Shown here: positions 32,601 through 46,200 of the stretch, piece after piece
How positions within the stretch are numbered: position 1 is the first letter of the stretch
Layout of the letters: the number at the start of each line of letters is the position of its first letter
Source: Podarcis vaucheri
Taxonomy: Eukaryota
Strand: one strand, 5' to 3'
Assembly: GCA_965113315.1 (NCBI GenBank)
Contig: OZ220363.1
Length of the DNA: 64,000 nucleotides
Position numbers and translations under genes: made by a program
The notes under the pieces: generated by a model
Seen by the model: only the letters and a program-made list of their open reading frames with translations
Told to the model about the DNA's origin: nothing
Database searches by the model: none

Positions 32601-34078
32601 TCAACAAGCGTGAGCGTGTGGAGCTGAGGCGTCGGACTCTCCTGCTGCTGTACTACCTGCTGAGATCTCCTTTCTATGATAGATACTCTGAGTAAGGCTG
32701 CCTGGCTGGCTTCTTTTCAACCATATTAAAATCCCCACCCCCATAAGGAGACCTCTGGATTTCTAAAAGAGAAACCTGTGGCTTGTGAGCATTCAGCACC
32801 CAAATGGGTCTTGTCTGTAAGCTCCATTCCGAGAGTCCCATTCCCATTGGGAAGGAAGCCATTCTCATGGGCTCATCTGAGGTGTTTTCTCTCTTTCTCT
32901 CTCTCTCTGTGTTCCTTCAGGGGCAGGATCCTCTTTCTGCTGCGCCTGCTGGCAGATTACGTCCCTGGAGTTGGCTTAGTCACTCGTAAGTAGCTGACTG
33001 TTGTGATTGGTCTTTTTAAAGGAAGCTGATAAAGGTTAAGGAGACCGTAGGGGAGAATCCTCCATTGGTTTTGGGATAACCAGTTCAAGGGGCTTTCTAC
33101 TCAGCATGTGCTTAGATGAGGGGTATTCAAGGATAACAGCAGGGCTAGAAGATCTCCACATTTGAAAAGTTGGCAGTAGGATCTGTGAAGCTGAAATGTC
33201 TCTTCAAAGACTTTAAGTGTGGCTACTGAAAATGCTTTGCTGCCGTTGTCTGCTATTGTCACATACGTATCTCCACAGCCTAAAAATATGCTGGTGAACA
33301 TTTGAATAAAATGTATCTTCTCTTTTAGTAGGATACATCAATCTTCCATATATTTGGTGATTGTTTCCTTCCCTGTTTATATCTAGCTTGGGATCTAATA
33401 TTTCATTAAAATCTCCTCCTAGTATTAGTACAGTGGTGGTGGTGGGGCAGTCAGGGAACCATCAGAGCAGCATGTGGCGGGAGGAAGACGAGATTGTTCC
33501 TTCAGTGTAAGCAATTCTGCTTGTCTGATCAAAGCATCTCAGTGCTACATTGAATGCTGCTCACTGTTTTGATACTTGCTTTTAAAAAAATGTACATGTT
33601 TTGGATGAAGGCATGGCTTACAAATTGTTTGAATAAATAGCAACTTTTAGGAGTTGACAATGACGATTCTGTGCAGAATCCAGACTTTTGAGCAACACAG
33701 GAATAGCAGTTATTATTACTGGTCGGTTTTCCTTCTCCAAAACATCTTTTCTGTCAAGACAAAGGGGGTCTATGCAAGGGACCCCTTCCTGAGATATATT
33801 TCATATCAGTCCTTCCTTTAGATATATGAATATTAGATCTCTCTTCTTGCCCTATGAATAGCCCTCCTTTCTTTCATATGCCCCACCTGTGATTTCAGAA
33901 CTCAGGATGTTGGCTGGGAAGGGGCAGTTGTGGAAGCAAATGTTGGCAAGTTAATTTCTCACATGTTGCTTTAAGGTCTTCCAGTTCATTTTCATATTTT
34001 TCTCCCTTCTTCATTTCAGGGCCACTGATGGACTACTTGCCAGCCTGGCAGAAAATTTATTTCTACAACTGGGGTTGA
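23281..34078 (+). CDS. PEX16: Peroxisomal biogenesis factor 16, complete 11-exon gene: join(23281..23416,25593..25628,27280..27356,28968..29101,29852..29952,30561..30641,31162..31314,31605..31677,32572..32691,32921..32985,34020..34078), 1035 nt, 344 aa
   Basis: Strong Kozak gccATGG at 23281. All exons are flanked by AG/GT and join in frame. Translation matches recalled PEX16 motifs: [100 protein letters not shown]. Confidence 0.97.
25593..25628 (+). CDS. PEX16: PEX16 exon 2 ([11 protein letters not shown])
   Basis: ttttccag acceptor, G|GTAAGT donor, 36 nt. Confidence 0.95.
27280..27356 (+). CDS. PEX16: PEX16 exon 3 ([26 protein letters not shown])
   Basis: ctttctcag acceptor, GTAAGA donor, 77 nt. 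Confidence 0.95.
28968..29101 (+). CDS. PEX16: PEX16 exon 4 ([45 protein letters not shown])
   Basis: tttgcag acceptor, GTGAGT donor, 134 nt. Confidence 0.95.
29233..29442. mobile_element. Tc1/mariner MITE in PEX16 intron 4 (related to 10771-11001)
   Basis: TIRs AGTGGTACCTCTGGTTACGAAC / GTTCGTAACCAGAGGTACCACT, TA flanks. Confidence 0.85.
29852..29952 (+). CDS. PEX16: PEX16 exon 5 ([33 protein letters not shown])
   Basis: cccacag acceptor, GTGAGT donor, 101 nt. Confidence 0.95.
30205..30244. repeat. (GGGATGAT)x5 tandem repeat inside a degraded hAT MITE
   Basis: gggatgatgagatgatgggatgatgggatgatgggatgat. Confidence 0.85.
30561..30641 (+). CDS. PEX16: PEX16 exon 6 ([27 protein letters not shown])
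   Basis: cctgacag acceptor, GTGAGT donor, 81 nt; YVGKR..RVVR motif. Confidence 0.93.
31162..31314 (+). CDS. PEX16: PEX16 exon 7 ([16 protein letters not shown]...[15 protein letters not shown])
   Basis: ttttag acceptor, U12-type donor GTATCCT, 153 nt. Confidence 0.95.
31315..31604 (+). other. PEX16: U12-type (minor spliceosome) GT-AG intron 7 of PEX16, 290 nt
   Basis: 5' site GTATCCTCC; perfect U12 branch point TTCCTTAAC at 31584-31592, ending 10 nt before the terminal AG (31603-31604); flanking exons join in frame (LLH|LVSVGLWG). Confidence 0.9.
31605..31677 (+). CDS. PEX16: PEX16 exon 8 ([25 protein letters not shown])
   Basis: U12 acceptor, AG|GTCAGT donor, 73 nt. Confidence 0.93.
32572..32691 (+). 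CDS. PEX16: PEX16 exon 9 ([40 protein letters not shown])
   Basis: cttctgcag acceptor, GTAAGG donor, 120 nt. Confidence 0.95.
32921..32985 (+). CDS. PEX16: PEX16 exon 10 ([21 protein letters not shown])
   Basis: CT-rich tract + ccttcag acceptor, GTAAGT donor, 65 nt. Confidence 0.95.
34020..34078 (+). CDS. PEX16: PEX16 exon 11, terminal coding ([19 protein letters not shown])
   Basis: atttcag acceptor; TGA at 34076-34078. Confidence 0.95.
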
Positions 34079-34441: not shown

Positions 34442-34447
34442 AATAAA
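34442..34447 (+). terminator. Candidate PEX16 polyadenylation signal AATAAA
   Basis: First AATAAA I noticed after the stop (about 365 nt), followed by GT/T-rich sequence; further AATAAA near 36093-36110. Confidence 0.45.
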
Positions 34448-36650
34448 GCCGGGAGTCGGCAGTGCTTTTGGGCTAATTTGGTCTGTTCTCTTGAATATTG
34501 GGGACGTGCCTCGCAGGAGGAGTAAGGTCTCTTGCTTTCTGGCCAGCTGGGATGGAAGGCAGAGAGTTTTGCAGACACTGCCAGTGCTTTGTTTCTGAGG
34601 TGAGACAAAAATTAGCATTCAAACCAGCCTGGAAATGTTTCCCCTTGTGCACACGCACACATGCACACCATTCTCAGATGCAACGGGTGGGATTGGATCA
34701 CTGGAATTAACCCTGTGAGGATATGTGCTCCAAACCATTTTCTTGATGTTATTATCTGGCACATAATCCAGAGTCATCACTGAAAGGCTGCTTCCAGACT
34801 CACAATAAGCTATTGCTGCTCTTTGCGCAAACCCATTACCCTTTTCTGGCTATACAGCCAGGCTTATTCCCCACCCCACCTCGTCTTTCACAGTAAAAAC
34901 CTATGCAGTTTGGTGCTGTGGTTGGCAGGGAACTGAGCACCCCTTGGGCCAGCTCAGGCAGCAAGCCAGGAATGTTCTTGGGTATGCTTTTTTCCTTGGC
35001 TTATTTCCAGTGGTCCATATGCTGCTCGGCTGGAGCCTGGTCTGCCAGGGGCTGTGGCTGCTGGTCTTCTCTGCCAGCCTGCTTAATTTCCTGCCCTGCC
35101 CTTGAGGATATGCAGCTCCACAGCTTGCAGACTGCCTGGATAACAGCTAGTGTGTGCTGCAGGGCTTCGCTGAACAAACTGCCGGTTGCGGAGGTGCTGG
35201 CAAGCAGGGCCAAAGGCCTCGGCAAATTGGTTGGTGTCTGCAGAACTGAGTTCCCAGCAAATGAAACATAAAGGCCTGAGCCGATGCCTGGGTCAAATAA
35301 ATCAGAATGGTTGCCCTATGCAAAGCATCCAAGAAGTAAGTAATCGAGTGCTTCATCAACTCTCTCCACCCATAAAGCAGCAGATGGAGCACAAAGTGCT
35401 TGTGCTGCCTACCTCCTCGGTTACTTACTGGCACGGTCTGTTTTTCCTTCTTGCTAAGGCTGCATTTACTGATAGGCCACTTCCCAGCATCTTCAGTCTG
35501 TTTCTGCAGTGGTAGGCTGAATACTTGGAAGGGCTTGCCATGAATCAGGGCCCACCAGGTTCAGAAGGCAGTCTGGAGAGTGCTCAGCTTGTAGATTTCT
35601 TTTTCCAAAGCTAGCAATAGCCTCCTTGCAACAGACAGGTGGGGGAAACTGCCCTCCATTTTCTGCTGTGTAGTACAATTTTCCTGCAAAACGAAAACCA
35701 AACCCATAGGAAATAAATGTTCTCAATCCCAGGGAAAGGATCTATGTACTGGAACAATTTGTTTAGTAGAGGAGGACTATCAGTCATTTCAGCAAGCTTG
35801 CTGATGAAGGAAAATCTGTCCTGTTTTCAGATGGCACACAAACTTCTTAAGTTTGTTGGAAGTTGGGGTTTCGTCCCCATCTTCCTACCTTCTCCCTGTA
35901 ATTGGTAGGTGCTGTCACCTCCTTATGGAGGGTCCTTGGAGGGATTTATGGGTGAAACGATAGACTACTGCAGTCACTACTGGCAAGAGGCCTTTGTTTA
36001 ATTTCCCCTTCTTTCCTACTCCATAGTTTCGTAGCAGTGACCAGTAGCTAGACTGATTGGAAGCCCATTTTCACTAGCTCACCAGTCTTCAAAATAAAGC
36101 ATAAATAAAAACTAAAGTGAGAGAGATGGAGAATTTGAATTTAAAGAAAGGGTAGGTGAGAGAGAAAAGTTACAGTCGGGTTTCTAGTCTCCATCTGATG
36201 AAGACTGGCCCTATAAGTTGAACCACATGGTTCAGGGCAGTTTAAAACAGGACCAAACATACACTGTATGCCTGTTGTGACACCTTAATGCAAGCAACTG
36301 ACAGATCCCCCTTCTCTGTGAAAGCTGGAGAGAGTGGGAGAGAGTGGGATTATCCTATTATGTCCCTGAAGGCTTCATCCACCAACTAAATTTGTCCCCT
36401 GCGAGCCACAAGCTCAGTGTACCAAGGACATAATGTTCAGCAGGCAGATAGTCACACATCTATTATACAGAACAGCACCTTTGATAGCCCCCTCATATGT
36501 GCTAGAATTTATACCAGTGGTTTATTAATACACTTTGGAATTTGGTTTTTGTTAGGTTAAAAAAAAATGGTGCAAGGTGGGGGGGGGGAGTGCAGTATGC
36601 CTCAGTCTCCTCACTCTGTCAAACTCGCACAGCTGCCTAACTCACTAGTT

Positions 36651-36786
36651 CAGGCATAGGCAAACTCGGCCCTACGGATGTTTTGAGACTACAGTTCCCA
36701 TCACCCCTGACTGCTGGTCCTGTTAGCTAGGGGAGATGGGAGTTGTAGTCCCAAAACATCTGGAGGGCCAAGTTTGCCTATGTGTG
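36651..36786. mobile_element. hAT-type palindromic MITE
   Basis: Long imperfect inverted repeat with exact 8-bp target site duplication CACTAGTT (36643-36650, 36787-36794); degraded relatives near 15700, 28480, 30130, 38360, 38550, 39835, 41080, 52545, 56630, 62980. Confidence 0.88.
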
Positions 36787-37169
36787 CACTAGTTACTTTG
36801 ATGCTGTGTTACTGAAGCCTGGCTGGTGCATAAGCTGGGGCTCTCCTCTTGTTCCTAGATAATGTGACTTCATGGGAAGAAAGCTATGCCTGATGAGAAA
36901 GTACATCATGTGGGATGAAACTTGTTTCTCTGAAATGGGGCTCAGCTAGAAGAGTTGTAGAAGCATGCAGCTTTGTCTGAGAGGACACTTTTTCCGAAGG
37001 GGCTGCACAAGTTGCATTCTTAGGCTGGCCCCCATTGGGCAGGCCCATTACCTAGGAATCGGAATGCTGTGTGTTCTTTACCCTTTGTGATGGCATTGTA
37101 GGCACTGGGAGCTGTCTTAAGTTCCATTGCTGAAAGCCAATAAGGGTTCCTACCCATTTGACTGGCCGG

Positions 37170-37234
37170 ATGGGATTCCTGCTTCTGTTGCTTCTCCTCA
37201 CAGAGAGAGGGCTGTCCATGCCAAGTCTTCAAAG
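37170..37234 (+). CDS. FREY1: FREY1 exon 1 candidate (MGFLLLLLLLTERGLSMPSLQR), signal peptide/anchor
   Basis: cggATGG with in-frame TGA upstream at 37131; donor AAAG|GTAAAA in phase 2, compatible with exon 2. Confidence 0.7.
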
Positions 37235-40200
37235 GTAAAACACTGCTTGGTGGTCCTGCACTCTCCATTAGGGGAAAATAAATAACTGCACAACGAATTG
37301 TATACCTGACTCTTGCCACCCAGATGTGGCAAGGAATGAGGGTGAAGAAAAGTGGCCACTTGCCTGCCTTTCTTTAGGAATCAGGTACACTTTATTAAGG
37401 AATCATGGCAGCAGGTTAAGTCAGAGATATCCATTAAGTCTCAGTGCATGACCCCTTCTCAAAGGAAAAGCGTGCCAAATATAAAACAACAGCTAGCAGT
37501 AGGATTATATTCCAAAGGCTCAACATCTGGGTAGATCAACCCATCTCACATGCCCTAATTCCTATTGAAATTGTCAGCAGGCACATTTTAGGGATATTTT
37601 GCTCCTGCTGGCACTAAGAAAAGAAAATCGCAATATGTTTTGGTATAGTGAACCACTTTAAAGATGTACTCCTATGTATCAAGTCAAATTTCTTTGGAGA
37701 ATTTAGATTTTCATGCAAACCCCTTGATTATGATAAATGCTTGAAATCACTGCATTGCTTGATGTCCTGAAGAAAGACGCAGAAGTGGGGGGGGGGGGCG
37801 CGGCAGAAATGGGGCCACAGGCGATACAAAAATAAGATTTTCAATAAATACTGCAGTTATCCACCATCTTTCGGGTCTGTACATGCTTTTCAAACAAGAC
37901 ATTATAAATGGAAAGTGATGTAATAAACAGATAAAATTAATTAGTTAATAAGGTTTTAAATAGCTGCATTTTCAAAATGTGATTTGATTACATCTATAAT
38001 TTCTTGATCAAGAGGATATGTTATGGTTTGGAGGAAAGTTTTTTAACTACAGAGGGTTTATTATAGGCACTTGCACTTGTTTTAATTGCACATTTGGGCT
38101 AGTGCTCTGTGCTTTGTTTTATAAATTATTATTTGGCTGGGAAGGTGTTTTGAAATAACCACGTGGGCAACTCCCTCCGCACTAATAGTCCATAAGATCA
38201 GGGCTTTAGGCAGCAACCATCGCAGTTCCTGACCTTGTCCTCTTCTGCAGCAGGCTCAGTCCGTCTGTCCCAGAGGAATTCTCTGCACCCCTGGAGCTCC
38301 AGCAGCAGCACTTTGGCCTGGTGGATGGCATGTATTCCTTCCAGTTCCTACTACGCAACAGCATAGGGCAAGGAGAGCCAATGTTGATGGACTCCAGGTG
38401 TTGATGGACTACAGTTCCCACCATCCCTGACCCCTGCCTATGCTCGCTGGGGCTGATGGGAGTTGTAGTCCTTACCTCTGGGCAAAGGGATCGTCAATAT
38501 ATAGGCACAAGTTGAAAAAAAAAGTCCCTTCCAGGTTATTAGAAGAGAAACCTTTCCCAATTTTTGGTCCCCAGATGTCATTGGACTACAGCCCAGTTAT
38601 TCCTGGCCAGCAAAAGTAATCATAGGGGATTGGTGGGAGTCGTAATCCAACATCTTGGGGATCTGTTGGTAGGGAAAGCTGCAGCAGAGGCATGGCTGAC
38701 CAGTGCAAGATGGCCTGAGCATTTCAAACCTATCTGGCATCACTGTTCCAGCTACCAAGTTTCTGAACTTAACTCAAAGGGCTGGTTTTGACCTATAAAG
38801 CCTTATGCAGCTGAAGGACTGCCTCTCCCCAACATGAACCAACCTGGATCATGTATGTGGTTTGGGGTTGTCCTCTGTGTGCCCTCTCCAAGGAGAGTGG
38901 GGTGGGTGGCAACACAAGAATGGTCATTTTCAGTGATGGCTCCCTGATTATGGAAAGCTCTGCCTAGTACTGCCACTGGCTACTTTTAGGAACCAGGCAA
39001 AAACATTGCCATTCAGCCAGGCCTTTAACTTGGAGAGTTTTAGATACTGTTTCCTCCTTTAGTGCATGGGATATGAACCTACCTAGACCTTGCGATTATA
39101 ATCTGAAGCCCTTCTTCGTGTGCCTCCTCCACGAGAAGTCTGGAGGGCGGCAACATGAGAAGGGGCCTTTTCTGCAGTGGCTCCCTATTTGTGGAATGCT
39201 CATTATACAGGGAGGCTCATTATACACCTTTAGGCACCAAGCAAAAATGTTACTCTTCAACCAGGCCTTTGGCTGATTAAATGTGTTTGTGGGAGGGCTT
39301 TTTATTGCTTCATTTCTTTTTATTATGTATTTTTATCTTGTATTTTTATGCTATGAACCTCCTTGAGATCTACAGATGAAGGGTGGTATACAAATCTAAT
39401 AAATAAAATTTCGAGTTGACTTTTTGTAAAAGAGAGAGCAACTAATAAGTAGTATTATCGTTATCATTATTATTAATCATCGCCCACAACAAAACCCAGC
39501 TGTATCAGAACACAGATCACTTGAGTTTTCTTCCATGACCAGCTGCACCATCTATTTTCTGGATTCAAGAGAAAGAAAGAAAAAGCTCCCCTCTATCAAT
39601 TTCAGCCCCTCATTTGAGTCTGTATGGAATGGAAGCAATTTGAATGTGGTTCTGTAGGGAGAGGTGGGCGGAAGTGGATAAGGCAAGACTCTTGATTGAC
39701 TTTTGACACAACGCCTCTGAATGCCACCACTGTTGCTTATGAAGCCAAGAAGTCTAAACTCACTAGGAAACATGACAACCATGTGCCTTAAGCACCCTAG
39801 AATGCCCTGTTGGTTCAAAGAAGTCAGTCCTTAGAGCACCGGTGGGCAACCTGGTGCCCTTGAAATGTTGTCAGACCACAGCACCTATCATCCCTTACCA
39901 CTGGCCATGCTGGCTGGGGCTTATGGGAGCTGGAGTCCAACAACATTGGAGGAACCCAATGTGCCGCTCTTATCACTGCATCACTGCCAGCGTTTTGGTG
40001 TGCCAGTTGAACCACCCTCCCTCTCCTCAGCTTGCATGAGGTTCTTACGATCCAATTTCAGGGTGCATGTGGGGGAGGAGAGGGAAAAGCCCTATTGTGC
40101 AGGCAGAAGTCTTTGCACAGAGCTTCTTCTGGCAGCGCTCAGTAGGTGAATCCCTCCTCCAGTTTCCCCAACCCTGCCTTCTAGTTAACTGCCCCGAGGA

Positions 40201-40458
40201 TCCCATAATATGCCCCTCTTAGGGCCATGTGAGCCTTCGCTTCCACATCCTCCTATGTGATTTTTTCTCTTCCTGCCCTGCCATTGCCACGCACTTCTCT
40301 TACTAGCTCCTGTCTTCACAGATTATGGCATTAAACCAAAGATGCCCAACTTCCGGAGACGGATACAGCGGAAGGAATCGGAAAAGCTGCAAAAAGCACA
40401 CAAAAGCAAGCGGGATGAGCCAAATTTTGAGGAGTATTATTACGACGACCTCCTTTGA
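37170..40458 (+). CDS. FREY1: Frey regulator of sperm-oocyte fusion 1 (C11orf94) orthologue, 3 exons: join(37170..37234,38254..38327,40322..40458), 91 aa: MGFLLLLLLLTERGLSMPSLQRLSPSVPEEFSAPLELQQQHFGLVDDYGIKPKMPNFRRRIQRKESEKLQKAHKSKRDEPNFEEYYYDDLL
   Basis: Exons 2-3 match recalled human C11orf94 motifs (SVPExFSAPLEL, GLVDDYGI, KRD..xEYYYD..L*). Position and orientation between PEX16 and MAPK8IP1 match synteny. Exon 1 chosen as the nearest ATG + Leu-run + phase-2 GT donor. Confidence 0.88.
38254..38327 (+). CDS. FREY1: FREY1 exon 2 (LSPSVPEEFSAPLELQQQHFGLVD)
   Basis: NAGNAG acceptor ctgCAG|CAG (38251 or 38254); ends at a GC donor G|GCATGT. Confidence 0.88.
38750..39408 (+). mobile_element. L2-type LINE 3' end fragments
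   Basis: ttgacctataaagcc.., gggccttttctgcagtggctccc..tgtggaatgctc, ccaggcctttggctga, terminal ggtatacaaatctaataaataaaa. Confidence 0.6.
40322..40458 (+). CDS. FREY1: FREY1 exon 3 (DYGIKPKMPNFRRRIQRKESEKLQKAHKSKRDEPNFEEYYYDDLL*)
   Basis: Long pyrimidine tract + tcttcacag acceptor; TGA at 40456-40458. Confidence 0.9.
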
Positions 40459-40919
40459 GTCTCTTAGGGAAATGCAAATAGAGGTGCCACCTCTGAAGTG
40501 TGCTTGCACCAACTAATTGATCTGTCACAGGCAGCAAAAGCCCCTCAAACCCAAATCACCTAGTAATGTAAGAAGCGAGATCTTCCCCTTCCTTTGCTCT
40601 TTCACACTTGCATGCCTCTTCCCCATCCCCACAGTTCTGTCTGCTCTATGCATCCATCCTACAGGCATGGCACTTGGCACTCAGCAGGGCAGTTGCAAGG
40701 TCTTGGCTCACATCTCATGTTGAGCAAAGCTTGAAAAATTTGATGAGGGCCAGAGATGGGTGGGGGTGTTTTTTGCTGCAGAGGCTGGGACTGAGTTGGC
40801 CACAGCTTTCTGTTGCCGTTGTCTTCTCTCCCTCGCCACCCCTGTCATGACTCTTCTTATTATGGGTCCAATATTTCTTCCCCTTGTGCCAATTCTTCTA
40901 TTCTTTGCTCCCGCTGCAC

Positions 40920-40925
40920 AATAAA
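40920..40925 (+). terminator. Candidate FREY1 polyadenylation signal AATAAA
   Basis: AATAAA about 460 nt after the FREY1 stop. Confidence 0.4.
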
Positions 40926-42874
40926 ATTCCAGATTCTATGGAAGCTGACTACTATGAGTTGAATTGTATAATGTAAATATATATACAGTTCCATATTTGA
41001 CAAAATTGATTTCATTTAGGGCTTTTTTGTGTATAATTAAGTGTTTTTGTTTTGAGAAAAGCAGAAGTTAAGTGCCTCAATGGCTCTCCAGATATTGGAC
41101 GACAATTCCCATAATCAACGTTTATTAGTGTCCAACAGCATCTGAAGGGCAACAGGTTCCCCATCCCTACTTTAGGGTCTCCCCAACATCTGGTAGAAAT
41201 GCAGACCCAAAACCCTTTGAATGCCGCTTAATAATTGGCAGCTTTCCTTAACTGGCAACAACAGAGCTGCCAACATACAATCTATATTTAGCTAGAGAAG
41301 AGGCTAGTAGATTAGAAGATTTTGTGGCAGAGTCCATAGAGGTCCTGGGATTCTGACATCTCAAAGCCTTTAACCAGAATAGGGGAATGTGGCACAATTC
41401 TGGTGGTTGCAGGGGGCCAACAGCTGGGTAAACTCTAGCAAGACTTCTCAATCATTGTCAATAACTAACAAATTAAGCCCCCTCCCCATTGTATCTGAAA
41501 GCAAAAAAAAAGACACACGCACAACACCAAGGTTCACAAATCTATGGAGACAGAACCTCAATGGAAATGGGAGGGAGTTGGCATCCATCTGTATTGGGAG
41601 ACAATGAAGAAGTGCCATGCTCCCCACCCTGCCTGAAAGCCAAGCTATTCCGAGAAGAACGAGATCTACAAGAGAGAGTTGTTTCATAATACCCAACATA
41701 GTCATTCAATACTATTTGATTCAGTGGGACCTTTCCACACTTTTGTAAGCCTATGCAAGGTTTATACCTGTACTTTTGAAAACTGAAGATGTGTGACACT
41801 TCCGTGGAAATCTGATGTACTATAATTTGGTTTCAAAATGGGGGTTGCAGAACCTGGAATGTTGCTATGCTGCAACTGGTGTGGCTCCCCAAGGAAGGCT
41901 AGCAGAATGTCAAATTTGGCTCTTGCAATTCCCAGGAAAATGCTCAAACAGCAGTTTGCTTAGAGGCCTGAGTCTCCTTGGGCAACAAAACAACAGCAAC
42001 GCAGTCTCTTTGAAACATCAACGTTTAATCATTGTTGTCATTAGAGCAGAAGCACAGAGCCCCCTGCTTTTTGGGGGGGAGGGGGAGAAGGGCAAAGGCA
42101 CACCTTTCTGCAGCTCTTATTAGCCCCTAGTCACTCATGCTATTCTCCCAGCTTTGCTGCTTCTCCATGGGACCAAGCCCTTCCTGAATCAATTTTGTGC
42201 TTATGGCTGGAGCTCCTCTCAAGCCCCTTGATGCAGATGAATCAGATGAACCCTGGCTCTCGTGTTCTGTGCAGGGTCCAGATTCCCTCCGTGAATGTAG
42301 AACCTGCAGCTGGAGAGCGGGTATGGAGGGAAGGGAGATTTAGAGCACGGGCCGGGGTGGAGGAGCTCTTTCCATCAGCAGATTCCCAGGGCATGGGCCC
42401 TCCCTGGCTGTCTACATGCCTTCAAACTGGGAGGGGCTAGGACAGGCACCAGTGTTCCTCCAGTGGTTCCCGGATTTTTTGCAGGCACAGGATAAGAGAC
42501 TTGGATGCTATGTCTTGGGAACTGGCGGGGCAAATGGCCACCACCCCCATTCTCTGTCTCCTCCTTCACTATTCCCCAACCCCACCATTCCCAGCCAGGG
42601 ACTGGGCTCACTACTTGCAACCACCCCCAAGCTTATGAGCTATTCCTTCTTCTGCAGTGGAAGAGCAGCATCCCCATCTTACTAAACTCCCAATGTGAAG
42701 GGCTGAACACGGCAGCTAGAACTAGAGCAGGCCCCAAACAGACTCGAGCAGAACTCGTGGAGCCCTCTCTCTCGCAGTAGCACCAAGGCAGCCCATTCAA
42801 GTGGGCACTCCCAGTGCCCATGCCCACTCTCCTCCTGTACCAGCGGCAGCAACACCTGCTTCTGCTGGTGGTGC

Positions 42875-43130: not shown

Positions 43131-43203
43131 CTACTCTAGGTAGATGTCCTCTGTGGGGCATGTATATTCCACACATTCCTTGTAGAACTGATGGAAGGCT
43201 CTC
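43131..43203 (-). CDS. MAPK8IP1: MAPK8IP1 terminal coding exon ([23 protein letters not shown]), kinesin light chain-binding tail
   Basis: ttttgcag acceptor; TAG at complement 43131-43133. Confidence 0.96.
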
Positions 43204-46200
43204 CTGCAAAAAGAAAACATGAAATGGAATGTCAATTGGGAGCTGGGATTCTTCCACAGAACAGGCAAAGCAACAAGTTAGAGCTCAACACTGAGCCTAC
43301 CAAGAGGTCCTTAATTGCATCTGCAGAAAACAGTATTTGGAAAGAGGTAGATTCCATCATGGGAGAAGGGCTGTGATGGGAGAGTGCCAAAGCTCTGCCT
43401 AGTCAGGTTGTATGGGATCAATTCCAATCTGCTACCTCTGATGATGTGGACAGGCTGCTTAGACGAGTGAAACCTACCACCTGTCTCCTTGATCCTGGCC
43501 CATCAAAGTGAGCCGGGTAGGGCTGGGCAATGGGCTCAGTGAGGTGGTGAATGCTTCTCTCAGTGAGAGAGTCTTCCTGGACCCCCTTAAAGAAGCTGTT
43601 ATTAAACCACTCCTTTAAACACATCTATGGACCCGGCCATTATGGCCAATTATCACCCAGTCTCAGATCTTCCATTCCTGGGCAAGGTGATTGAGCGGGT
43701 GGTCATTGAACAATTCCAGGCACATCTGGAGGATGCGTACCATTTGGATCCCTTTCAGTTGGGATTCAGGCCCCATCATGAGACTGAAACCACCTTGGTT
43801 GCACTGGTTGATGACCTCTGGTGGGCTAGAGACAGAGGTCAAAGCTGTTTCCTGGTTCTGCTGGATCTCTCAGCAACTTTTGATACCGTTGACCATGGTA
43901 TCCTTCTGAACTGTCTAGGGGGGTTGGGAGTTGGGTGAAAAGTGGCTGATCCCTGGCCACTAATGCTTCTGCTGGCATCTCCAGTACCCACTTGCAACCG
44001 ACACACCCCTCTCTTAGATCCAGGTAGACTAGGATCTTTGTAAATAGCAGGAATTTTCAGGATGTAGCCTGAAACTCACCCTACAGACTCTGCAAGTGGT
44101 TTGGTGGACTCCTCTGCAACAAAGACATGGCACGCAAATCTGTGGTCAGCTGGGTGCTTGGTGATGAACCCAAAATACCTGAAAGAGAAAACACAATACA
44201 TGAGCTTGGGCTAAAGGTTGGGTTTCTGGTATCCTAGGCTAGGAATGAATTCTCTAACAAAGAAACAAGACCCATTGGTTCCATTCTTCCTGCAGGTACA
44301 AAATATACCTCCCTGAAGAGAAAGCCGTTGGTTTTGCTTTGCATGTGTGGGCAAAAGCAGGAAGTGGGACAAATACATTTCTTCCTGTGCAATTTGTGTA
44401 CCAGACAAAGCTGGTAAACGGCAGCCAAGACAACAGAGCTCACCTGGATCTCTAAAAATAAAGCTTGATTGCGAAGCCAACGCCCCACCCCCAACAAATG
44501 ATGGGCACACACCCCGCCAAATTCACAGCTGTCTTCTGGCTACTGTCTATCTATGTTGGTACCAAGTGGAGGATAAGTGTAGGTGATACAGTCTGATTAA
44601 TAAGATCACAATGCTGTTATATGCCCATCCCACCTTTATCAAGCATATTGTTTAGTAGGGATTAAGAAGATTGCTACACAGGAACTTCCTATACAAGTTA
44701 CACTTCAAAGCCCCAAACTGCCTAGGGTACACTGAAGGATAGTGCAAGGAGGAAGAGCTGTGTGTCTCCTTTGCCATGAACTCATTTTGCCCATCTGCCG
44801 GGTCTTACTTGTTGTTCTTTGGGTGGTATCCACAGAATGAAATGTTCTTCAACTGGAAAAAGTGGCTACATTTATTCCCCTGCAGGATGGAGAGAACAAG
44901 ATGTTAGGCTTGGGTAGGGCAGTTGAGGAACCAGAGCCATTTATTGAAGGGAAAGTAAAATGTGTTTGGATCCCTCACACTTGGGAGATCCAAGTCACAA
45001 ATTAAAAGGACCTCATGCTGTGTTTTGGGGAAAGGATATTCCATTGTATAACTTGCAACAGTTTATCTGTGCACTGCAAAAGCTTGTATGGTAGGAAGTA
45101 CAGGGAAAATTCCAGGAAGGGCTGATGAGAAGGAAAATCAAGTCACGGGAGTCTTGCTATACTGGCCTCAGAGTAGGGCCCCCAGACTCCTGATTTGTCC
45201 ATTTTAAATTACTTAGATCTTAGCCCTTGTAGAATGAAAGTTAGGAAGGAAAATGTGCATAGCCTATTTTGTGTGATATGAGCCTATTCCCATCTTTTAG
45301 CAATTTTAGTCAATGAGTGAAGTCGCAGCTGTGATTGACAGGTGCTATGTTACACACACACATCAGAAGAGACCCAAAAACAGCTCCAAAATGACCAAGG
45401 AAGTCCCGTCTCCAAACATTTGAGAAAAACATCAGCCGGGTTCAGTTTGAAGCCATTTTATTACCTTCCTTGCTCTATGTGTGACTTTTTTCTAGATGGA
45501 GAAAGAACTGCCTGATTCATTCTGAAGGATCTTCCAGGTTCATTTAAAAGCTTTTCTCTTCCTTTGGCTTTCCCTGATAGAAATGGGATTGTTGACCAGA
45601 AACAATAACTGAAAAATCCAGGATTTTAGTGTAGCTGTAATTGGGCAGTAGTATGTCTACCTAAAAGCAAAATTAGCAGCTAGGACAGTAAGTAATTCCT
45701 GCTCTTTCTAACTCAGAATTAATTTCATGAAAGAAAAGAGCTTTTTCCAATATTATGTGATTTTATTTTTTAAAAAATCCTGCTAATGCAAAATACATAT
45801 CACAGAGGGGTACTGCAACTGAGAGAGCTATGTGGGTTACATCAACCCTGCAAAGTAGCCCTAGCTTGCTATATTCAGGCCTGCTAGGGAAGGGCTGAAT
45901 AGCCTCTAGGTGTGTTGGTTTCTTCTTAGGGAAATGCAGTTGAGGGTGTTGTTAAGTGGACTGTCAAGTGGATTAATTGCTTTTTCAACCAAAGGGTGGG
46001 GGAAATAGGAGAATTATTGGAAGCAGCTTGTTGTTCCCAGTATGATAATCAACAGTTGCTTACTGTTGGTCAAGAAAAAGAAATGGGTGTCTGTTTGTCC
46101 TGTGCTAATAACACAGTTCTAGTTGTTAAGGAATAAAAATAATAACTAACCACAGCAAATGCTGCTAGAATACACTGCATTCAATCTTGAATTCATCCAG

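What the first reader, a model, noticed from the sequence alone, without database searches (positions are those of the whole stretch)
37170..40458. Hidden intact FREY1/C11orf94 micro-gene in a lizard
Seen: three small exons, absent from the ORF track, splice into a clean 91-aa ORF between PEX16 and MAPK8IP1. Known: mammalian FREY1 is a testis protein tied to IZUMO1 complex assembly and to the intramembrane protease SPPL2c, and it has been characterised mainly in mouse. Inference: an intact squamate orthologue implies an amniote-wide role. If SPPL2c is mammal-restricted, as I recall, FREY1 predates that partner and must have an older function. A gene this small with a GC donor is easily missed by annotation pipelines.
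Basis: partly seen in the sequence, partly recalled or inferred. Interest (0 to 1): 0.7.

Follow-up and report, generated by a model that had tools for sequence, protein, structure and literature searches.

The report
Ordinary lizard copy of FREY1 gene
This is a real, spliced three-exon gene, the lizard copy of the sperm-fertility gene FREY1, already annotated in related lizards and published as vertebrate-wide; it lacks the short motif that mouse FREY1 uses to block its protease partner, so it likely works without that block.

Summary
Exons 37170-37234, 38254-38327 (GC donor) and 40322-40458 give a 91-aa ORF between PEX16 and a PTB-domain gene. It matches Pfam Frey (E 8e-19), and contigs of public runs join both introns. 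It is neither hidden nor new: the protein is identical to a RefSeq 'protein Frey' of a lacertid, FREY1 is annotated across reptiles, birds, amphibians and coelacanth, and Hao et al. 2022 already report it as vertebrate-wide and testis-enriched in a lizard. A role apart from SPPL2c proteolysis is already shown in mouse. Two side results. (1) The PR motif needed to inhibit SPPL2c is in 15 of 16 eutherian but 0 of 94 sauropsid proteins. The lizard N-terminus is 13 residues shorter and looks like a signal peptide, while a KR site before an acidic Tyr-rich tail is kept in 121 of 126 proteins. (2) The genome has no SPPL2 copy near its tau-like locus, but it holds an intronless SPPL2 elsewhere, with relatives in turtles and ratites; its orthology to SPPL2C is unresolved. 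Verdict: already known, low interest.

The parts
37170..37234 (+). FREY1 coding exon 1: Met, a hydrophobic run to residue 10, then polar residues; GT donor. Contigs reach upstream to 37091-37101 (5' untranslated).
38254..38327 (+). FREY1 exon 2, conserved core; tandem acceptor at 38251 gives a 92-aa isoform
   Evidence: Pfam Frey E 9e-4; 0 differences over 76 letters in X5, X6
38328..38329 (+). Non-canonical GC splice donor of intron 2 (GC-AG intron 38328-40321)
   Evidence: matches 5 of 7 other donor-consensus positions, the best of the 7 exon-2 donors scored
40322..40458 (+). FREY1 coding exon 3: basic region, KR site, acidic Tyr-rich 14-residue tail, TGA
   Evidence: (Pfam Frey 31 bits, over cut-off)
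40459..40925 (+). 3' untranslated region ending at the only AATAAA in 40459-41500 (40920); two contigs end at 40913 and 40943
35307..35335 (+). Alternative upstream exon (ATG, 10 codons, strong GT donor, same phase as exon 1) used by a 79-aa database model that lacks the hydrophobic N-terminus; downstream of the PEX16 stop; not tested by reads
34020..34078 (+). PEX16 last coding exon (upstream neighbour, same strand)
   Evidence: (joint 32985-34020 in 4 of 4 runs); upstream exons by tblastn with a Pfam Pex16 protein
43134..44210 (-). Last two coding exons of the downstream, convergent PTB-domain gene (MAPK8IP1 by recalled motif and synteny)
   Evidence: PID E 5e-8

Best explanation
The locus is the intact, spliced lacertid orthologue of FREY1 (C11orf94), and its product likely works in the secretory pathway of round spermatids to help mature IZUMO1-class sperm membrane proteins, likely without inhibiting an SPPL2c-type protease. 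Shown here: gene structure, splicing in related organisms, family membership, synteny, an IZUMO1 exon in the same genome, and absence of the PR motif and of a basic residue at the position that aligns with residue 30 of 99-aa eutherian proteins. Taken from papers: testis enrichment in another lizard and the mouse mechanism (ER/pro-acrosome protein; binds OST subunits, IZUMO1 and SPPL2c; knockouts fail at sperm-egg binding). Inferred: the short hydrophobic N-terminus sends the protein into the ER and the conserved luminal core does the client work. Whether the N-terminus stays as an anchor or is cut off is open.
For: Identity to database FREY proteins; Pfam Frey; 189 relatives at E<=0.01, 120 listed, from squamates to amphibians; tree places it among squamates (89/84); identity 79% Pogona, 59% chicken, 47% seal, 41% coelacanth. 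Coding constraint: in X5/X6 six substitutions and an 8-base insertion fall in 37140-37155, before the ATG, and none in exon 2; none of the 12 indels shown (of 52) lies in the coding exons. One Izumo-Ig exon in the genome matches IZUMO1 structures at E 8e-9. PR motif: 15/16 eutherians, 1/2 marsupials, 0/1 platypus, 0/23 squamates, 0/4 turtles, 0/1 crocodilian, 0/66 birds, 1/12 amphibians, 0/1 coelacanth. PR and R30 are needed for SPPL2c inhibition (PMC10234869 passages and sections 6-7). Mouse sterility does not depend on SPPL2c proteolysis. OST/acrosomal-protein role (PMC9974436 sections 5 and 10 part 1).
Against: No tissue label on any run laid, so testis expression in this lineage is borrowed from Pogona. 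No functional test of FREY1 outside mouse turned up in my searches. The three mouse papers disagree on mechanism. The squamate N-terminus has a median uncharged run of only 11 residues and 2 charges where the mouse transmembrane helix lies, so the mouse type II anchor model may not carry over. 15 of the 16 eutherian rows come from one 90%-identity cluster and are not independent; the mouse sequence itself was not retrieved. Only one IZUMO1 exon was checked.
Confidence: 0.6

Rival explanations
1. Outside therians FREY1 is a secreted peptide precursor: a cleaved signal peptide, a conserved middle piece, and convertase cutting after KR to release a 14-residue acidic Tyr-rich peptide (possibly sulfated) into the acrosome or tubule. 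Therians later lengthened the signal into an uncleaved anchor carrying PR.
For: Residues before the conserved Pro: median 17 in squamates, 17 turtles, 18 birds, 30 eutherians. KR before the tail in 121 of 126 proteins and at least two Tyr/Phe in every tail. RxxR just after the hydrophobic part in 11 of 12 amphibians. Conservation peaks in the core and around the KR site.
Against: In mouse, predictors also called a signal peptide, yet experiments showed an uncleaved type II membrane protein with a retained C-terminal tag (PMC9374335 passages; PMC9974436 section 5). Hao et al. found orthologues of 'several other vertebrates' mainly in the membrane fraction of COS-7 cells (species not named in the text I read, figure not visible). 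RxxR is in only 3 of 23 squamates. No signal-peptide predictor was available; the call is by inspection and simple counts.
Confidence: 0.25
2. Lizard FREY1 pairs with the intronless SPPL2 copy at G000:C39:40.03 Mb, which is the sauropsid orthologue or analogue of SPPL2c, so the FREY-protease pairing is amniote-old.
For: A 578-aa single-exon SPPL2 ORF with both catalytic aspartate motifs; relatives in squamates, turtles and palaeognath birds; a clade with SPPL2C is not rejected (AU p 0.36 and 0.25); 3 polarised columns favour it against 0 and 2 for the other groupings.
Against: The best trees put the copy beside SPPL2B (71/52 and 85/81). It lies by class C GPCR, 3-beta-HSD and zinc-finger exons, on another contig than any tau-repeat gene, whereas human SPPL2C sits with CRHR1 and MAPT (PMC4815063 passage). 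Lizard FREY1 lacks PR and the R30-aligned basic residue. No relative from neognath birds was among the 61 hits, though they keep FREY1. Its expression was not tested.
Confidence: 0.12
3. The exons are a relic or mainly a read-through tail of PEX16 rather than a gene of their own.
For: The penultimate PEX16 exon would splice in frame to FREY exon 3; such a chimeric model exists for a quail (P0205) and is discussed for turtle and bat; contigs cover the PEX16 3' region almost continuously to FREY exon 1 in X1.
Against: Exon 1-2 and 2-3 joints are seen directly; in X5 the FREY exon contigs have depth 106-179 with no cover at 34442-36590. The frame is intact and constrained across squamates. No PEX16-FREY joint is among the 15 joints shown of 95.
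Confidence: 0.03

Closest known systems
FREY1 / C11orf94 / 1700029I15Rik (Pfam PF15878 Frey)
   Same: Three coding exons, position just downstream of PEX16 (PMC9974436 section 5), conserved core, KR site and Tyr-rich tail; 47% identical to a seal protein.
   Different: N-terminus 13 residues shorter before the conserved Pro, no PR motif, no basic residue at the R30-aligned position, charged residues inside the stretch that is transmembrane in mouse.
Annotated squamate FREY1 (database names 'protein Frey', 'protein Frey 1', 'C11orf94 homolog')
   Same: 91-aa product identical to P0012, 92-aa isoform identical to P0014; 1 to 3 differences from four other lacertid entries. Pogona orthologue reported testis-enriched.
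   Different: Nothing of substance. One current database model (P0015) uses another first exon and lacks the hydrophobic N-terminus.
Peptide-hormone precursors with convertase sites and sulfotyrosine tails (gastrin/CCK-like layout; comparison recalled, not from a call)
   Same: Signal-like N-terminus, dibasic site, short acidic Tyr-rich C-terminal piece.
   Different: No sequence similarity was tested or found; no amidation Gly; the mouse orthologue is shown to be membrane-anchored.

Membership tests
FREY1 (PF15878) | Profile match above the curated cut-off | tested here: met
   68.4 bits vs 28.3 for the identical protein P0012; exon 3 alone 31 bits
FREY1 (PF15878) | Three coding exons directly downstream of PEX16 on the same strand | tested here: met
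   mouse layout in PMC9974436
FREY1 (PF15878) | Intact frame, spliced transcript | tested here: met
   joints in contigs of related organisms, RNA by guess
FREY1 (PF15878) | Testis / round-spermatid expression | not testable with these tools
   runs carry no tissue label; Pogona data from PMC9437168 supplement 1
FREY1 (PF15878) | Uncleaved type II transmembrane helix of about 20 residues | tested here: inconclusive
   only 17 residues before the conserved Pro, uncharged run 11, best 19-residue hydropathy 1.38 vs median 1.89 in eutherians; no topology predictor or experiment
SPPL2c-inhibiting Frey (mouse type) | PR motif at the start of the transmembrane segment | tested here: not met
   0 of 23 squamates, 0 of 94 sauropsids
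SPPL2c-inhibiting Frey (mouse type) | Basic residue at position 30 | tested here: not met
   Met at the aligned position; R/K in 0 of 23 squamates, 10 of 16 eutherians, 32 of 66 birds; equivalence inferred from a 99-aa seal protein
SPPL2c-inhibiting Frey (mouse type) | An SPPL2C orthologue in the genome | tested here: inconclusive
   no match on the contig of the tau-like locus; intronless SPPL2 elsewhere, AU test does not reject or show orthology
Secreted peptide precursor | Cleaved signal peptide | not testable with these tools
   length and charge pattern fit; no predictor or N-terminal sequencing
Secreted peptide precursor | Conserved dibasic site before a conserved short peptide | tested here: met
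   KR in 121 of 126 proteins; actual cleavage not tested

The most novel reading that the evidence does not exclude
FREY1 began as a spermatid peptide precursor (cleaved signal, convertase-released acidic Tyr-rich C-terminal peptide), and lizards keep that form. Therian mammals turned the signal into a membrane anchor and gained the PR motif that locks SPPL2c. Then the conserved fertility function would lie in the luminal core or the released peptide, not in the transmembrane helix studied so far.
Probability: 0.22. Interest if true: 0.55.

Novelty: already known. Interest (0 to 1): 0.13.

Why it matters
As found it matters little: the gene is annotated in close relatives and its vertebrate-wide, testis-enriched distribution is published. 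The useful by-product is a natural variant for a disputed mechanism. Three mouse papers disagree on how FREY1 acts, and the lizard protein keeps the luminal core and tail but lacks both features needed to inhibit SPPL2c, so a rescue test in Frey-null mice would show which part carries fertility.

Tried and rejected
Upstream extension of the N-terminus: rejected. There is an in-frame stop 13 codons upstream, no in-frame ATG, and an 8-base insertion in that stretch in a related organism; the longer database models of a gecko, a monitor and a garter snake do not agree with each other. Other exon-2 donors: of 17 GT/GC sites in 38290-38419, four others give a product in the exon 3 frame, but contigs use 38327. 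Complex prediction of FREY residues 1-55 with the membrane part of the intronless SPPL2: no verdict (score 0.03, mark 0.34, alignments not used, no controls folded); no weight either way. Run search: no RNA holder listed on record; X9 and X11 showed no FREY joint. dN/dS across squamates: not run, no coding DNA of relatives at hand. SPPL2 trees: two careful searches did not finish and gave quick trees; smaller sets finished (16 and 13 rows) and left the S/2B/2C order open; no sauropsid SPPL2B and no marsupial SPPL2C row was available. CRHR1 could not be placed beside the tau-like locus (no HRM match within 3 Mb), so the mammalian interval may be rearranged here. Literature: searches showed no paper on the clade pattern of the PR motif, on FREY1 as a peptide precursor, or on a sauropsid intronless SPPL2; these were judged from listings and abstracts, searches were too loose to be informative, and subscription papers are not held. 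Earlier scan notes: none fit.

Full report
Observation. Intron 1 is GT-AG, intron 2 is GC-AG, and exon 2 has a tandem acceptor that adds one residue. Pfam Frey matches exon 3 above its cut-off and exon 2 below it. PEX16 lies upstream on the same strand and a PTB-domain gene downstream on the other strand. Of 23 runs listed I laid 7. The exon 2-3 joint at the GC donor appears in 5 of them from three studies; the exon 1-2 joint appears in 2 of the 4 runs, one study, and is not among the 15 of 95 joints shown. The runs are RNA by guess, unlabelled for tissue, and from related organisms.

What it is. A search with the exon 3 frame gave 11 squamate proteins among 12 candidates, 10 of them named FREY or C11orf94. 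The nearest cluster holds 7 lacertid entries; one is identical to the 91-aa product and one to the 92-aa isoform. A profile search gave 189 relatives, 120 listed, from squamates, turtles, a crocodilian, birds and amphibians. An exhaustive search of 1.84 billion representatives gave 36 hits, adding coelacanth, platypus, marsupials and eutherians. The tree places the window protein among squamates. So this is FREY1, and it is annotated.

What is in print. Hao et al. 2022 (PMC9437168; passages, section 5, supplement 1) report the gene from cartilaginous fish onward and show testis enrichment in Pogona (48.9 against at most 2.5), chicken, alligator, caecilian and pufferfish. Contreras et al. 2022 (PMC9374335; passages, section 8) show a type II ER protein, stabilised by SPPL2c, whose knockout sterility does not depend on SPPL2c proteolysis. 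Lu et al. 2023 (PMC9974436; passages, section 5, section 10 part 1) tie it to OST subunits and acrosomal protein biosynthesis and note PEX16-FREY chimeric models. Contreras et al. 2023 (PMC10234869; outline, passages, sections 6-7) map inhibition to a PR motif and R30. A 2026 review (PMC13319360; passages) adds nothing on non-mammals; the SPARK preprint does not mention FREY. The IZUMO1-SPACA6-TMEM81 complex is described as vertebrate-wide (search listing only). Figures, and the alignment supplements of Hao et al., could not be seen and may already show the N-terminal differences below.

Anatomy across clades. I aligned 126 proteins that look complete, leaving out partial or mis-modelled entries such as P0007, P0015, P0026-29 and P0034. 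The part before the conserved Pro is a median 17 residues in squamates and 30 in eutherians. PR is present in 15 of 16 eutherians and 1 of 2 marsupials, in 0 of 94 sauropsids, 1 of 12 amphibians (at the extreme N-terminus), and not in platypus or coelacanth. The R30-aligned position is basic in 10 of 16 eutherians, 0 of 23 squamates and 32 of 66 birds. KR before the tail is kept in 121 of 126. Fifteen of the eutherian rows come from one cluster, so they count as few independent observations. The lizard N-terminus looks like a signal peptide, but the same was predicted for mouse and disproved by experiment.

Partners in the genome. One Izumo-Ig exon matches IZUMO1 structures at E 8e-9, and an IZUMO-domain exon 0.3 Mb away looks like IZUMO2 (label recalled). 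The A22B peptidase search gave 13 matches at 6 loci. By recalled motifs four are the spliced SPPL2B, SPPL2A, SPPL3 and SPP genes and one is a broken SPP-like copy. The sixth is a single-exon 578-aa ORF. Its 19 best hits of 61 are squamate, turtle, palaeognath and unnamed proteins, labelled SPPL2B where named; I checked lack of introns only in this genome. They form their own clade (100/100), with the order against SPPL2B and SPPL2C unresolved. It is not near a tau-repeat gene, and 200 kb upstream of the tau-like locus hold no SPPL2 match in 6816 frames. In 11 of 12 squamate-clade rows the PAL motif reads STL, while 6 of 6 turtle and bird rows keep it; PAL changes block SPPL2c activity in mouse.

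Mechanism. Most likely the lizard protein does what the mouse protein does apart from protease inhibition: it enters the ER of round spermatids and helps IZUMO1-class acrosomal proteins mature (0.6). The gene, splicing, family and missing motifs are shown; tissue, topology and clients are inferred from Pogona and mouse. The main rival is a cleaved peptide precursor (0.25); a pairing with the intronless SPPL2 is less likely (0.12); a PEX16 read-through relic is very unlikely (0.03).

Verdict. Observation confirmed, interpretation partly supported, novelty already known, interest 0.13. The only open lead is the clade pattern of the N-terminus, which my literature searches did not find described but which needs a topology experiment.

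Noticed in passing
L001:1231-2967 (-), G000:C39 about 40.03 Mb: Single-exon 578-aa SPPL2 paralogue with relatives in squamates, turtles and palaeognath birds, labelled SPPL2B in databases but a separate clade. Catalytic aspartate motifs kept in this copy; PAL changed to STL in 11 of 12 squamate-clade rows, so possibly a pseudo-protease. Orthology to SPPL2C unresolved; expression untested.
   Followed up: partly
window 35307-35335 (+): A 10-codon exon with a strong GT donor downstream of the PEX16 stop splices in phase to FREY exon 2 in a 79-aa database model (P0015) without the hydrophobic N-terminus; may come from PEX16 read-through RNA.
   Followed up: partly
window 32985 and 40322: The penultimate PEX16 exon is in phase with FREY exon 3, which explains PEX16-FREY chimeric models such as P0205; no such joint among the joints shown.
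   Followed up: partly
one search hits (P0001-P0213): No bacterial protein among the 36 representatives at E<=0.001: 28 are named vertebrate entries and 8 unnamed or not looked-up ones resemble bird, crocodilian or mammal exon 3. This gives no support to the horizontal-transfer origin proposed in PMC9437168. No ray-finned or cartilaginous fish was among them either, so the search is not at its limit.
   Followed up: partly
one search hits: 12 of 36 representative models break at the exon 2-3 junction (exon 3 alone, retained intron, or PEX16 chimera), in birds, a crocodilian-like entry, a skink, a newt and bears; the GC donor may be shared widely, which I could not check.
   Followed up: partly
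L008/L010, G000:C19 about 104.25 Mb: SPP/HM13-like pieces close together with frame changes; looks like a broken processed copy.
   Followed up: no
L017, G000:C34:18113294-18113464 (-): IZUMO-domain exon, IZUMO2-like by recall, 0.3 Mb from the IZUMO1 exon.
   Followed up: no
L021:906-5072 (+), G000:C34 about 28.31 Mb: 1389-aa open frame with reverse transcriptase, RNase H and integrase domains: an LTR retroelement with a long intact pol frame.
   Followed up: no
L023-L024, G000:C34 about 28.34 Mb: A Band 3 cytoplasmic-domain exon lies about 150 kb upstream of the tau-like repeats, and no hormone-receptor (HRM) match lies within 3 Mb, so the mammalian CRHR1-MAPT interval appears rearranged.
   Followed up: no
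window about 36650-36780, 38400-38480, 39880-39950, 41090-41150: Short interspersed repeats in and around the FREY introns; they draw most of the contigs and spurious joints.
   Followed up: no
window 43606-43938 (+) and 33213-33461 (-): Open frames that read like reverse-transcriptase and endonuclease fragments of LINE elements (by recall, not scanned).
   Followed up: no
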